DNA from: Escherichia coli
GTDB taxonomy: Bacteria; Pseudomonadota; Gammaproteobacteria; Enterobacterales; Enterobacteriaceae
Strand: one strand, 5' to 3'
NCBI RefSeq assembly: GCF_030013205.1
Contig: NZ_CP122648.1
Length of the DNA: 64,000 nt
In this document: positions 1 to 3,000 of the stretch, one piece after another
How positions within the stretch are numbered: the first letter of the stretch is position 1
Layout: each line of letters begins with the position of its first letter
Program-made: the position numbers

Positions 1-3000
1 TTGTTTGTGAGTACGACCATCCTGCACACACATCAGGCGAATTTCGTTTGCCCATGCTGTCCAGTTCGGTTCTTTGGGACGAACCACCTCGCCGTCACAT
101 TCGGCGGCCTGCTCGTACAGGGCGATGATTTTTTTCCAGAGCCACTGTGCGCAGGTCAAATCATCCTGCGTTCCCCACTGGCGCTTTTTAGGGCTGAATA
201 CAACCGCATCAGGATGGCGAGTTAAAAACTCCTGTTCAGCCGTTTGCGTGTCCGGTTGCGAAGCGTCCGGACGAGAAGAGGTTTTATTCTCTGTAGTAAT
301 CTCTGTTGTATTCTCTGTAAGATCATTGGGCCATTTTGACCCGATGACAGCGTGTCGTTTTGAACCAATGGATCGTGTCATTTTGCGCCCATCCATCAGG
401 TCACTTTGACCCGATGGAGAAGTGCATTTTGACCTGATGGATTCGTTCACTTTGACCTCTTCTAAAAGCTCACTTTCATAGTTGATCGTGTAGAAGTTGG
501 TCATGTCACGCTTCGATTTATTGAGTTGCTCGCGACGCAAAACCCCAAGTGATTTCAGGCTTGCAAATGTGCGTTTCAGAGTGGACTCTGACCAGAACGG
601 AAACTGCTCCAGCCACTGTTCTGTCGTGTTATAAACCCAGCGAATTCCGCCATGCTCAGTGCCTGAATTCGTTTCATTCAGCCAGTAATGAAGCTGCTGC
701 AACACAATTGCCTCATTCAGACCAATACGGCATGCAAGATCACGATTTATCACAATGGGCTGGGATGTCATTAACAGGCTCATGACCGACCTCTATTTCC
801 CTGAATTTACGACGAAACTGTTCGAGCGGACTGAAGCATTCATGTTCATAGCCTTCACGGAGGTAGATAACCCGTTGTGTTTCCGGCTCCCAACGAATGA
901 CTCTGACGGGCACTCCGTAGTGATCTTTGAACCAGCGGTTAACTTGTCGCAAAGGACTGTCTCCTTCTGCCGGTTGAAATCACCCACAGCCCACTCTGCA
1001 AAGCTGTGGGTTACAATTTCCCTGTCACCTGGTACATTCACTGCATAGCAATACTCCACCTTCGCTTTTCCACCCGGTACAGGAAGCGCAATCAGTTGCG
1101 AGCGACGGTAGTGTGTTGTTAAACTGTTCATGCGTTAGTTTCTCCACAACCAGAAGCAATCGACGCCACGACGCCCGGAGCTGCACACTCGCGGGCGTTA
1201 CTCTTTTCCGGCGCACAAAAAACACGAAATAACAGTGTTAAATGCTCCTGCCACTTCGCCATTACTTGGTAGCTGTTCTCTTCGATTTGCTCACGCTCAG
1301 CCTGGTCAATAACTCCATCAGCAGTTGCCTTGCGTAAGTACTGGGAATGCTTGCCAATCCATTCTATTGACTCCATCAGCCGCTGATTAATGTCACCATT
1401 GTCAATGTCATCAATGACCACCAGCGGCACAAACACCCCATTACTACGACGGGCTATTGCATCTGTTACATGCCTGGTACCACTGGCATCCTGTAAAACC
1501 ATGGCCCACTCAAGTGGAAAAATTTGATCCCCACCGCTACGCAGTCTGTTATGCAATTGATCTTTTGCTGGGGTGATATCATCAGATTTATACAAACCAA
1601 GAATTTCTGCTGCTTCCTCATAGCCATGAGGTAAATCAGCAATCGTTCTTCGTATTGCTGCCACCAGCCATGCTGGTTGTTTATCAACTTTCCATTCAGG
1701 TTCTTTACCCACGGTTAATTCCTCATTTCTGTGGTGTTTTTATGCCGCAGCACTGTTAGTCTTTTGATATAAAGACACGTCAACTTTCAGTTTCCCGTTA
1801 GTAATTTTTTCTAACTGGTACGCTCGGCCTTCAGGAATAATCTCAGGCCACTCTGAAACAGACGGATGCTTAATACCTAGGGCTTCGGCGGTTTTACAAA
1901 CTCCGCCGAAATAATTAATCACGTCGGATTTCCGCATTTCTGTCTCCCGTTAAATTACGTCAAGCAGGAATGTAGGATATCCAACATGCCAATGTCAAGA
2001 ATCCTACATTGGCATGTGGTAGGATTGCCTACATGATGAACATGAGTGATCGTATTCGCCAAAGGCGAAAAGAACTGAACCTGACACAACAAGCACTGGC
2101 TGATTTGACTGGTGTGAACCGTGTCACGGTTACTGGATGGGAAAAGGACGACTACCAACCAAATGGAGCCAACCTTCAAGCCCTAGCCAACGCACTTAAA
2201 TGCGATCCTCTGTGGCTTGTTAGCGGAAAAGGCTCGCCTGAACCAAAGATAAATCTAAAACCTGAAATATTCGCAGTTAAAAAAGTCCCCCTCATCTCGT
2301 GGGTTCAGGCGGGTTCATGGACAATGACGGAGCCTGGTGTCAGGAAAGAAGATGCTGAAGAGTGGGTTTATACTACCGCCCTTGTATCAGAAATGGCATT
2401 TGCACTACGGGTCCGTGGTGATTCAATGACCAATCCCCTCGGCTCACCATCGATACCAGAAGGTTCTATCGTTATCGTAGAGCCAGATATTATTGATACA
2501 GAGTGTATTAACGGAAAAATCGTTGTTGCCCATATCAATGGTGGGCAAGAAGCGACACTCAAAAAATTTGTTGAGGACTGGCCGAACAGGTATCTCGTCC
2601 CACTAAATCCTAACTATAAAACTATTGAATGCGGTGAGAACTGCAGAATAGTTGGTCTTGTCAAACAAGTAATAATGGATTTTTGACACATCTTCCTCAC
2701 TATCGCAAAACCGGGGTATCCCCGGTTTTTTTATGAGCCTATCTTTTTATGTAGGATAACCAACATAAACTCTTGACACCTACATGTTGGATATCCTACA
2801 TTTGTTTTTAGAGTTGTGGTGAATGCGCAGGCTGATGCGCGAAAGACATTGCAGCTATTGCGGAAAAGAGCTGTTCGGCGGGGCAATTAAACGCCCGTGA
2901 GAGTCTGAAATAACCGCAAGCCGGAGATCAGCACCGGTCACCACAACAGCCACTGCTTTGGCGGTACCAGTTTGTACACTTGCTTCCGGCTGGTACCGCT

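What the first reader, a model, noticed from the sequence alone, without database searches (positions are those of the whole stretch)
270..463. Six regularly spaced 23-bp iterons plus an AT-rich tract inside the O-like replication gene
Direct repeats with core CAYTTTGACCYGATGG start at 332, 356, 379, 402, 425 and 448, next to an AT-rich tract with TCTCTGT repeats. All lie within the minus-strand O-like frame that runs off the window. This is the hallmark of a lambdoid ori embedded in its initiator gene and suggests the replication module is intact. The plus-strand ORFs in the track here are antisense artefacts.
Basis: seen in the sequence. Interest (0 to 1): 0.4.

Follow-up and report, generated by a model that had tools for sequence, protein, structure and literature searches.

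The report
Prophage replication origin inside initiator gene
The repeats are almost certainly the DNA replication origin of a common E. coli prophage, sitting inside the gene of the protein that binds it; this is a known lambda-like design, but its unwinding tract carries a 12-base repeat that recurs in phages of very distant bacteria.

Summary
Six repeat slots start at window 332, 356, 379, 402, 425 and 448, spaced 24/23/23/23/23 bp. Beside them lie three 12-bp repeats at 283-318, the least stable DNA in the gene.

All sit in a minus-strand initiator gene (window 1-783). In the source genome, E. coli ETEC4079, this gene is an intact 330 codons.

The lambdoid-origin reading is supported by comparison, not by experiment:
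- The repeats fall in all three reading frames.
- Synonymous sites are frozen exactly here. Third-position entropy is 0.73 in the N-domain, 0.36 in the iterons, 0.08 in the 12-mers and 0.91 downstream.
- SfII shares only the C-terminal domain and carries a different N-domain with different repeats.
- The C-terminal domain is homologous to lambda O (E 1e-26).

- The N-domain is not lambda-O type.
- No P/DnaC/DnaB-like gene exists in the prophage stretch examined or in the 98.9%-identical phage mEp460_4F5.
- The prophage has lost its head genes.

The unexpected part is the 12-mer NCAGAGAnTAC. It follows unrelated iteron sets in initiator genes of phages of Proteobacteria and Firmicutes, and as CAGATA in Bacteroidota. 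Its codon choice points to selection on the DNA itself.

The origin is an ordinary new member of a known kind. The 12-mer is the lead worth testing.

The parts
1..783 (-). Initiator ('O-like') gene, first 261 of 330 codons. It continues 210 nt beyond the left edge of the window. An alternative ATG lies at 771.
   Evidence: Open frame. Intact 330-aa CDS WP_000054957.1 in NZ_CP122643.1. PHROG 391 at E 2e-101.
463..783 (-). Coding region of the N-terminal winged-helix domain (aa 1-107), the presumed iteron-binding domain.
   Evidence: AF2 model with pLDDT 84.7 and a winged-helix topology. Best PDB matches are winged-helix DNA binders, including the plasmid RepA N-domain bound to iterons (4pql/5kbj), but they are weak (E 5e-3, TM 0.5). 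No Pfam or NCBIfam hit. Homologues exist from E. coli to Bacteroides phages.
324..463 (-). Iteron array of six 23-bp slots. The 13-bp dyad cores (sense strand GGTCAAAATGACC-like) lie at 445-457, 422-434, 399-411, 376-388, 353-365 and 329-341.
   Evidence: The cores fall in reading frames 2,1,0,2,1,1. The centre TCAAAnTG is invariant in most slots across 73 sequences.
391..419 (.). Near-perfect palindrome TCCATCAGGTCA-CTT-TGACCCGATGGA, the one slot with both half-sites complete.
   Evidence: Inverted repeat I4, 13 nt and 100% complementary. ssDNA hairpin of -10.6 kcal/mol, z -5.15.
283..318 (-). Three tandem 12-mers (sense ACAGAGAATACA ACAGAGATTACT ACAGAGAATAAA), the presumed DNA-unwinding element within the A+T-rich tract 281-320.
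   Evidence: Third-codon-position entropy is 0.084 against 0.73-0.91 in the flanks. The same 12-mer occurs in initiator genes of many phage groups.
1..224 (-). In-window part of the C-terminal domain, homologous to the C-terminal domain of lambda O.
   Evidence: BLASTP against lambda O: 33% identity over 148 aa, E 1e-26. Nearly identical sequence in SfII, attached to a different N-domain.
1969..1998 (-). pR-like promoter (TTGACA-18-TACATT) upstream of cro. It would drive transcription through cro, the cII-like gene and the O gene with its origin.
   Evidence: Consensus scan, 10 of 12 matches. This is a consensus match only.
1128..1937 (-). Context: cro (1740-1937) and a cII/YmfL-like regulator (1128-1712), upstream of the initiator in the same operon.
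   Evidence: Pfam P22_Cro at E 8e-22 and Phage_CP76 at E 1e-6. PHROG 101 at E 3e-62.

Best explanation
This is the vegetative replication origin of a lambdoid prophage integrated at dusA, and it lies inside the gene of its own initiator.

Proposed mechanism:
1. Transcription from the pR-like promoter produces the 330-aa initiator.
2. Its N-terminal winged-helix domain, probably as dimers, binds the array of six 23-bp-spaced dyad sites (core GGTCAAAATGACC, each with a central A-tract). This builds an O-some-like complex.
3. The stress of that complex melts the adjacent least-stable tract, the three 12-mers ACAGAGAwTAC.
4. The lambda-O-like C-terminal domain brings in the replicative helicase. 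The phage encodes no P, DnaC or DnaB homologue, so this must use host DnaB, probably with DnaC.

Shown here: the anatomy, the selection acting on the DNA itself, the co-inheritance of N-domain, iterons and 12-mers, the homology of the C-terminal domain, and the absence of a loader gene.

Inferred: binding, melting, the helicase route, and my further proposal that the sequence-conserved 12-mers are read as single strands by the initiator, as in plasmid RK2.
For: Position and layout match ori-lambda. Iterons occupy codons about 108-152 and the A+T tract codons about 153-167, between the two domains. In lambda the four iterons are annotated at codons 116-144, followed by the A+T-rich tract (PMC7466680 read).

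The repeat is a DNA repeat, not a peptide repeat. The 23-bp period puts the cores in frames 2,1,0,2,1,1.

Selection acts on the DNA:
- Against three ~80%-identical lineages, third codon positions are invariant in 43% of the N-domain, 82% of the iterons, 100% of the 12-mers and 43% downstream (Fisher p 1e-10).
- In 73 distinct sequences, third-position entropy is 0.733 / 0.357 / 0.084 / 0.913. The codon periodicity of variation disappears in the iterons (0.357 against 0.289).

Modular co-inheritance: SfII and SfIV share the C-terminal half at about 97% but carry an HTH_36 N-domain with different repeats. The junction falls right after the A+T tract.

Deep conservation of the architecture: 16 phages chosen only by N-domain homology (27-100% identity), from E. 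coli, Klebsiella, Pseudomonas, Erwinia, Pantoea, Staphylococcus, Bacillus, Listeria, Lactobacillus, Stenotrophomonas, Burkholderia, Flavobacterium, Vibrio and Bacteroides. Fifteen carry 22-23-bp-period dyad repeats from about nt 300-330 of the gene; Pseudomonas phage AF shows one clear site and a degenerate second one in register. Nearly all then have a 12-nt-periodic tract (weakest in Stenotrophomonas).

Other support:
- The C-terminal domain is homologous to lambda O (E 1e-26).
- An isolated phage with a complete set of virion genes, mEp460_4F5, carries the same module. It is 98.9% identical over window 1-1500 and identical across the iterons and 12-mers.
- The tract is the thermodynamic minimum of the region.
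- Precedent for winged-helix Rep proteins binding one strand of repeated DUE elements: PMC4081077.
Against: No experiment shows binding, melting or origin activity for this sequence or any close relative. I found no paper on it.

Three of the six slots are degraded, and in Stx phages only four of six iterons are bound efficiently (PMC7466680). The functional number may therefore be below six.

The N-domain fold matches to known iteron binders are weak (E 5e-3, TM about 0.5).

The lambda-O-like C-terminal domain has no P partner here, so the helicase-loading step has no established precedent.

The 12-mers always lie in one reading frame (ACA-GAG), so a contribution of peptide-level selection cannot be excluded.
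Confidence: 0.85

Rival explanations
1. The repeats only encode a repetitive, flexible linker between two protein domains. They have no function as DNA.
For: The region lies between two folded domains. The 12-mers are in frame and encode TENT-TEIT-TENK. The frame ACA-GAG is the same in about 69 of 73 motif-selected loci, those with at least 120 in-frame codons upstream, and in the homology-selected phages with clear units.
Against: The 23-bp repeats are read in all three frames, giving unrelated peptides. Synonymous positions are the most conserved ones, and the codon periodicity of variation is lost. In the 12-mers Glu is GAG 28 times and GAA once, while the same genes use GAA 184 and GAG 140 elsewhere (p 7e-9). 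In distant relatives the peptide changes (T-E to P-D) while CAGAKA stays.
Confidence: 0.03
2. The iterons are initiator-binding sites used for control (autoregulation, copy-number handcuffing, exclusion of related phages). Strand opening and the start of synthesis happen elsewhere in the phage.
For: Iterons in plasmids also serve control functions (PMC4980987, found and not read in detail). Cloned lambda origin regions inhibit related phages (abstract of PMC3349717). No start site is mapped here.
Against: The array is always followed at a fixed distance by the least stable, sequence-conserved 12-mer tract. The last core starts 23 nt before the first 12-mer in five of eight phages, with 20, 33 and 46 nt in the others. 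The layout copies ori-lambda, where unwinding has been mapped next to the iterons (PMC7466680). No second repeat cluster of this kind occurs in the window.
Confidence: 0.07
3. The extreme conservation of the 12-mer tract reflects its role as a recombination joint between exchangeable gene modules, not a role in replication.
For: The mosaic junction between N-domain types lies exactly there: in SfII the sequence shared with the window begins just after the tract. The same 12-mers join 2 N-domain clusters to 18 C-domain clusters and occur in a different 'RepO' gene.
Against: Homologous exchange cannot maintain the motif between phages of Staphylococcus, Bacillus, Acinetobacter, Pseudomonas and E. 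coli. The motif is tandem and 12-nt periodic, with a fixed phase to the iterons, which a joint does not need. The two roles are not exclusive.
Confidence: 0.05

Closest known systems
ori-lambda with the O protein of phage lambda
   Same: The origin lies inside the initiator gene, between the N- and C-terminal domains. There are several dyad iterons with a central A-tract, spaced 20-24 bp, followed on the C-terminal side by an A+T-rich tract whose sense strand is purine-rich. The C-terminal domain is homologous (E 1e-26). The gene sits in the pR operon after cro and cII.
   Different: The N-terminal domain is unrelated at sequence level (no Phage_rep_O hit). The iteron sequence differs (GGTCAAAATGACC against TCCCTCAAAACGAGGGA). 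There are six slots rather than four. The unwinding tract is three ordered 12-mers. There is no P gene.
Six-iteron origins of Stx phages 933W and P27 (PMC7466680)
   Same: Six iterons followed by an A+T-rich tract inside the O gene.
   Different: Those are close lambda relatives with lambda-type iterons and a P gene. There only the four iterons nearest the A+T tract are bound efficiently. Which slots are used here is unknown.
Iteron plasmids RK2 (TrfA) and F (RepE): DUE with repeated 13-mers (PMC4081077)
   Same: A winged-helix initiator, direct iterons, and an adjacent unwinding element made of repeated short units whose exact sequence is required. In RK2 the Rep protein binds one DUE strand. 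This is the model I borrow for the 12-mers.
   Different: The plasmid origin lies outside the rep gene. The 13-mers differ in sequence. RK2 also uses DnaA boxes, and none is present here. No homology was shown.
RepA_N plasmid initiators of staphylococci (PDB 4pql, 4pt7, 5kbj)
   Same: Among the best structural matches to the N-domain model, namely a winged-helix N-domain bound to iterons. From my own knowledge, not checked here, their origins also lie inside the rep gene.
   Different: The fold match is weak (E 5e-3, TM 0.5) with 15-18% identity. Membership is not established.
Initiators of SfII, SfIV and e14-like prophages (PHROG 391)
   Same: The same C-terminal domain (about 97% nt identity), the same gene neighbourhood, and no P gene.
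   Different: A different N-domain (HTH_36) and a different repeat set (GACCCGTCAAAAT-type). They lack the ordered ACAGAGAwTAC triplet.

Membership tests
Lambdoid origin embedded in the initiator gene (ori-lambda type) | The origin lies within the initiator coding sequence, between the DNA-binding and C-terminal domains. | tested here: met
   The repeats occupy codons about 108-167 of 330. The folded N-domain is aa 1-107. The lambda-O-like domain runs from about aa 147 to 294.
Lambdoid origin embedded in the initiator gene (ori-lambda type) | An array of at least three repeated initiator sites with dyad symmetry, spaced about two helical turns apart. | tested here: met
   Six slots spaced 23-24 bp. 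The core is GGTCA-AAA-TGACC. One slot is a full 29-bp palindrome and three are degraded.
Lambdoid origin embedded in the initiator gene (ori-lambda type) | An A+T-rich, easily melted tract directly downstream of the iterons. | tested here: met
   30% G+C at 281-320. It is the least stable 36-mer in window 1-2000.
Lambdoid origin embedded in the initiator gene (ori-lambda type) | Iteron sequence and initiator N-domain co-vary (type specificity). | tested here: met
   SfII has a different N-domain and different repeats with the same C-domain. Relatives show T/A, G/C or A at the variable core position according to N-domain lineage.
Lambdoid origin embedded in the initiator gene (ori-lambda type) | The initiator binds the iterons, and the fragment supports initiator-dependent replication. 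| not testable with these tools
   This needs EMSA or footprinting and a trans-complementation replication assay.
Lambda-type initiator plus helicase-loader module (O plus P) | A P-type or DnaC-type helicase loader, or a DnaB-type helicase, encoded next to the initiator. | tested here: not met
   Downstream lie a PerC-like remnant, dam, a LexA-like gene, rusA, KilA-N, DUF968 and Q. tblastn with lambda P and E. coli DnaB against the whole mEp460_4F5 genome and the prophage region gave no significant hit. The only Walker A motif inside an annotated gene is in terminase.
Lambda O protein family, N-terminal domain (Pfam Phage_rep_O, PF04492) | The N-terminal domain matches the family profile. | tested here: not met
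   No Pfam hit above E = 1 except a spurious Slx4 match. No NCBIfam hit. BLASTP against lambda O aligns only the C-terminal half.
Lambda O protein family, C-terminal domain | Sequence homology to lambda O residues about 135-270. | tested here: met
   33% identity over 148 aa, E 1e-26.
PHROG 391 'replication initiation O-like' | A full-length profile match. | tested here: met
   E 2.4e-101, aa 1-330 against profile positions 1-298. The PHROG name is an annotation, not a tested function.
RepA_N / winged-helix iteron-binding initiators | Structural similarity of the N-domain to a solved iteron-binding domain. | tested here: inconclusive
   Foldseek top hits are 4pql/5kbj at E 5e-3, TM 0.47-0.50. 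Many generic winged-helix regulators score the same.

The most novel reading that the evidence does not exclude
The 'TCTCTGT repeats' belong to a previously undescribed, sequence-specific unwinding element. It is a 12-nt-periodic motif, NCAGAGAnTAC (CAGATA in the most distant relatives), placed at a near-constant distance after the iterons (23 nt in five of eight phages). It is conserved in initiator genes of phages of Proteobacteria, Firmicutes and Bacteroidota, although the iterons beside it and the C-terminal domains after it differ completely. Such conservation implies a conserved reader. The most likely reader is the invariant aromatic surface of the N-domain (QFPFWS and conserved W/Y residues) holding one melted strand, as TrfA does in RK2. 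The same module works with no phage-encoded helicase loader, so this initiator family would recruit host helicase directly.
Probability: 0.4. Interest if true: 0.65.

Novelty: new member of a known kind. Interest (0 to 1): 0.4.

Why it matters
As an origin this is ordinary, but it is very common and not annotated. The 201-bp segment occurs in 1977 of 5426 complete E. coli genomes, usually under a 'hypothetical protein' label. Recognising it helps in three ways: annotating prophages, predicting which defective prophages can still replicate in place after induction, and designing mini-replicons.

The wider interest is the 12-mer. A short DNA word kept across bacterial phyla next to rapidly diverging iterons would be a rare case of a sequence-specific unwinding element in phages. 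It also gives a direct handle on how winged-helix initiators open DNA.

The absence of any loader in viable phages with a lambda-O-like C-terminal domain raises a further question. What does that domain bind when there is no P?

Tried and rejected
- **Profile searches.** Pfam and NCBIfam gave nothing for the initiator beyond a spurious Slx4 hit. A sequence search of the PDB gave no hit. Rfam found nothing in window 1-12000.
- **Sequence features.** There are no DnaA boxes in 1-1500. The 'Primosomal protein I (DnaT)' label in the phage records has no support from Pfam, and I discard it.
- **Literature.** Searches for the iteron, the 12-mer and the TTEITTE peptide returned only unrelated papers. 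The review on phage replication modules that I remember (Weigel and Seitz 2006) is not in the library, and its term 'initiator-solo' could not be verified.
- **Homologue searches.** The search for homologous proteins with the N-domain returned mostly short or partial gene calls without Pfam domains. I used them only for the AF2 alignment. The search for related loci returned only close relatives (79% identity or more), so it served for the diversity profile and not as an unbiased distant sample.
- **12-mer detection.** My automatic chaining misfired on Flavobacterium, Vibrio, Bacteroides and Burkholderia phages. There the units CCAGATATAAAC/ACAGATATAAAT and similar were read by eye. In one search, positions 3, 5 and 7 of the 12-mer logo are fixed by my own search expression and carry no weight. 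Only positions 1, 2, 6 and 8-12 are free.
- **Alternative partner proteins.** I considered the 112-aa and DUF4222 ORFs upstream, and the PerC-like gene downstream, as hidden P analogues. I rejected them because none is conserved next to the initiator across relatives.
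Full report
**1. What is in the sequence**

Window 1-783 on the minus strand is one open frame of 261 codons that starts at ATG 783 (or 771) and runs off the left edge.

Inside it, on the plus strand, six repeat slots start at 332, 356, 379, 402, 425 and 448, spaced 24, 23, 23, 23, 23 bp. The others have 3, 5 and 4 mismatches.

The pattern is far above chance. There are 10 hits at up to 3 mismatches in 64 kb against 1.95 expected, no shuffle reaches 10, and five hits lie within 110 bp.

Read on the sense strand, each 23-bp unit is CCATCrGGTCAAAATGaCnnnnT. Its 13-bp dyad core GGTCA-AAA-TGACC is at window 445-457, 422-434, 399-411, 376-388, 353-365 and 329-341. One slot carries both half-sites in full, forming the palindrome 391-419 (pair I4).

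Next to the array, at 283-318, lie three tandem 12-mers (sense ACAGAGAATACA ACAGAGATTACT ACAGAGAATAAA). They sit in a tract of 30% G+C that is the least stable 36-mer of the first 2 kb. This triplet is the only such cluster in the window.

**2. Where the window comes from, and the rest of the gene**

The window is 100% identical to the chromosome of E. coli ETEC4079, NZ_CP122643.1, from position 4726872.

Extending leftward shows that the gene is intact. It is 330 codons with no stop or frameshift, annotated only as 'hypothetical protein'.

It belongs to a roughly 32-kb prophage inserted in dusA. The integrase is at the far end, and a dusA 5' remnant lies at window 9709-9813.

The prophage is defective. 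Its terminase large subunit and tape-measure genes are both truncated and lie side by side, so the head genes are gone. The gene following the initiator is reduced to an 84-nt remnant, and yfdP is frameshifted.

The same O gene, origin and neighbours occur at 98.9% identity in the isolated phage mEp460_4F5, which has a full virion gene set. The sequence is identical across the repeats.

**3. The protein**

The full protein matches PHROG 391 'replication initiation O-like' at E 2e-101. It has no Pfam, NCBIfam or PDB sequence match.

Its C-terminal part is homologous to lambda O residues 135-270 (33% identity, E 1e-26).

Its first 107 residues fold with good confidence (pLDDT 84.7) as a winged helix. 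The nearest solved structures are winged-helix DNA binders, including the iteron-bound N-domain of staphylococcal plasmid RepA, but only weakly (E 5e-3, TM about 0.5).

The plus-strand ORFs over the repeats match no phage family.

**4. Evidence that the repeats work as DNA**

(a) The 23-bp period is not a multiple of three, so the cores fall in frames 2,1,0,2,1,1 and encode unrelated peptides.

(b) I compared the gene with three lineages that are about 80% identical (HannyBb, PhiR42_1, mEp460_ev081). Third codon positions are invariant as follows (p 1e-10):

| Region | Invariant third positions |
|---|---|
| N-domain | 43% |
| Iterons | 82% |
| 12-mers | 100% |
| Downstream | 43% |

(c) In 73 distinct sequences from viral contigs, third-position entropy follows the same pattern:

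| Region | Third-position entropy |
|---|---|
| N-domain | 0.733 |
| Iterons | 0.357 |
| 12-mers | 0.084 |
| Just after | 0.913 |

In the N-domain, variation is concentrated at third positions (0.733 against 0.111), as expected for a protein under selection. In the iterons that periodicity is lost (0.357 against 0.289). The centre TCAAAnTG is invariant in most slots.

(d) Phages SfII and SfIV share the C-terminal half of the gene almost exactly. They carry a different N-domain (HTH_36) and a different set of repeats, and the junction falls just after the A+T tract. This is the classical lambdoid pattern of a type-specific N-domain with matching iterons joined to a common C-domain.

**5. Comparison with lambda**

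In lambda the four annotated iterons lie at codons 116-144 of O, spaced 20, 24 and 23 bp. Each is a dyad with a central A-tract (TCCCTCAAAACGAGGGA), and an A+T-rich tract follows (PMC7466680).

The present array has the same position (codons about 108-152, then 153-167), the same spacing, the same kind of dyad with an A-tract, and the same polarity. The design is therefore lambda's. The N-domain and the iteron sequence are not.

**6. The loader that is not there**

None exists.

In ETEC4079 the genes after the initiator are a PerC-like remnant, dam, a LexA-like repressor, rusA, KilA-N, DUF968 and Q. The gene following the initiator differs between relatives:
- mEp460_4F5, SfII and Pantoea AH07: a PerC-like activator.
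- HannyBb, PhiR42_1 and mEp460_ev081: a Ren-like gene.

tblastn with lambda P and E. coli DnaB against the whole mEp460_4F5 genome finds nothing significant. The only Walker A motif inside an annotated gene is in terminase.

So viable phages replicate with this initiator alone. I infer that its C-terminal domain recruits host DnaB, probably through DnaC. This step is inference.

By contrast, relatives of the same N-domain in other hosts are followed by a DnaB-like helicase, a primase-helicase or a DnaC-like loader. This shows how freely the C-terminal partner changes.

**7. The unexpected part: the 12-mer**

I chose sixteen phages only because their initiator N-domain is homologous to this one (27-100% identity). 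Their hosts are E. coli, Klebsiella, Pseudomonas, Erwinia, Pantoea, Staphylococcus, Bacillus, Listeria, Lactobacillus, Stenotrophomonas, Burkholderia, Flavobacterium, Vibrio and Bacteroides.

Fifteen show 22-23-bp-period dyad repeats starting about 300-330 nt into the gene. Pseudomonas phage AF shows one clear site and a degenerate second one in register.

The core varies with lineage:
- GGTCAAAATGACC in E. coli, and nearly the same in a Bacillus phage.
- GGGCAAATTGCCC in Erwinia and Pantoea.
- GGACAAAATGGCC in Staphylococcus.
- Other sequences further out.

The tract that follows is much more constant:
- NCAGAGAnTAC repeated every 12 nt in Proteobacteria and Firmicutes.
- CCAGATATAAAC/ACAGATATAAAT-like in Flavobacterium, Vibrio, Bacteroides and Burkholderia phages.
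- Stenotrophomonas is the weakest case.
- The first 12-mer begins 23 nt after the start of the last iteron core in five of eight phages examined.

Of 73 usable loci, 72 look like initiator genes; about 69 of them have at least 120 in-frame (ACA-GAG) codons upstream, and three show only 24-32. Each motif is preceded by an iteron array, and the arrays have many unrelated sequences. Their N-domains form two BLAST clusters plus one unrelated singleton, and their C-domains form eighteen.

A BLAST of the 40-nt tract against phage genomes found 128 records. The main groups were Acinetobacter 34, Bacillus 17, Staphylococcus 17, Stx phages 17 and Klebsiella 12. Nearly all hits lay under genes annotated as replication initiators.

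A different E. coli prophage initiator ('RepO', followed by a DnaB-type helicase) has other iterons (GGrAAAACCA) but the same three 12-mers.

Codon choice argues for selection on the DNA. In 32 units the free third positions are G in 28 and T in 29. Glu is GAG 28 times and GAA once, whereas elsewhere in the same genes GAA outnumbers GAG 184 to 140 (p 7e-9).

In the distant phages the peptide changes (T-E becomes P-D) while CAGAKA is kept.

Two caveats apply. Positions 3, 5 and 7 of my logo are fixed by the search expression. The frame is always the same, so some peptide-level constraint cannot be ruled out.

**8. How it most likely works**

Shown: the anatomy, DNA-level selection, co-inheritance of N-domain, iterons and 12-mers, and C-domain homology.

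Inferred steps:
1. N-domain dimers occupy the dyad sites and build an O-some-like complex.
2. The 12-mer tract melts.
3. The C-domain brings in host helicase.

For the 12-mers I propose the mechanism demonstrated for plasmid winged-helix initiators. TrfA and RepE bind one strand of the repeated 13-mers of the unwinding element, and every repeat is needed (PMC4081077). Lambda-type O proteins also interact with A+T-rich single strands (PMC7466680).

A conserved reader would explain why the 12-mer is kept while the iterons drift. The N-domain alignment does have an invariant or near-invariant aromatic set: W34, W49, W57, the motif QFPFWS, Y98 and Y102. This last step is speculation, at a probability of about 0.4.

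**9. Rivals**

- A pure linker-peptide repeat is excluded by the frame and codon evidence.
- A control-only role for the iterons cannot be excluded without mapping. It is unlikely given the fixed pairing with the least stable tract.
- A recombination-joint role for the 12-mers is real at short range, since the SfII junction lies there. It cannot explain conservation across phyla.

**10. Known or new**

I found no paper describing this origin, these iterons or the 12-mer in the searchable library. Subscription literature was not searchable, so absence there is not proof.

The kind of element, an iteron origin inside the initiator gene, is textbook. This is a new, very common but unannotated member, present in 1977 of 5426 complete E. 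coli genomes.

The cross-phylum 12-mer and the loader-less module are the parts that would interest a specialist.

**Verdict**

Novelty is 'new member of a known kind' and interest is 0.4.

Noticed in passing
L003 1-80 and L014 35338-36952 (left of the window); L003 9711-9794 (window -289 to -206): The host prophage is defective. Truncated terminase large-subunit and tape-measure genes lie side by side, so the head genes are deleted. The PerC-like gene that follows the initiator in mEp460_4F5 and SfII is reduced to an 84-nt remnant.
   Followed up: partly
window 9709-9813: A 5' fragment of dusA marks the prophage end. The intact dusA and a tyrosine integrase lie about 32 kb away at the other end (L014 22943-25166), the arrangement typical of dusA-specific integration.
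   Followed up: partly
window 740-952 (-) and 793-1131 (-): Two ORFs on the same strand overlap by 160 nt in different frames, and each matches a phage family strongly (DUF4222/phrog_1343 at E 5e-34; phrog_1170 at E 1e-69). RefSeq annotates only the first and the phage records only the second.
   Followed up: no
window 8254-9455 (-): Three minus-strand genes (two hypothetical, one with a Panacea domain) sit between the excisionase-like PrtN gene and the prophage end, where lambdoid phages often carry cargo. They may be a toxin-antitoxin or defence cassette.
   Followed up: no
window 3144-3505 (+): yfdP is annotated as frameshifted in the source genome.
   Followed up: no
L016 916-1926 (-): A different E. 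coli prophage initiator ('RepO', followed by a DnaB-type helicase) has another N-domain and other iterons (GGrAAAACCA, about 23 bp apart). It carries the same three 12-mers, TTACAGAGAATACAACAGAGAGTACTACAGAGATAAAAG.
   Followed up: yes
L007 1120-1175 (lambda 39119-39174): Lambda's own A+T-rich tract reads ACAAAAGACACT ATTACAAAAGAA ..., followed by one exact TCAGAGAAT unit in the same reading frame. It looks like a decayed version of the 12-mer tract. This was seen by eye only, after the fact.
   Followed up: no
alignment A2 (N-domain, aa 1-112 of the initiator; window 448-783): The N-domain family has an unusually aromatic conserved set (W34, W49, W57, QFPFWS at 60-65, Y98, Y102) and is not covered by any Pfam model.
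   Followed up: partly
proteins P0001-P0120: Many database gene calls for this family stop at 110-190 aa, that is, within or just after the repeat region, and several come from complete genomes. These may be assembly breaks, frameshifts in the repeats or real truncations. I did not examine which.
   Followed up: no
L003 3202-3276 (left of the window): A tRNA-Gly gene, an AraC-family regulator and a DUF6731 gene lie between Q and the lysis genes of the prophage, in the position where lambdoid phages carry morons.
   Followed up: no
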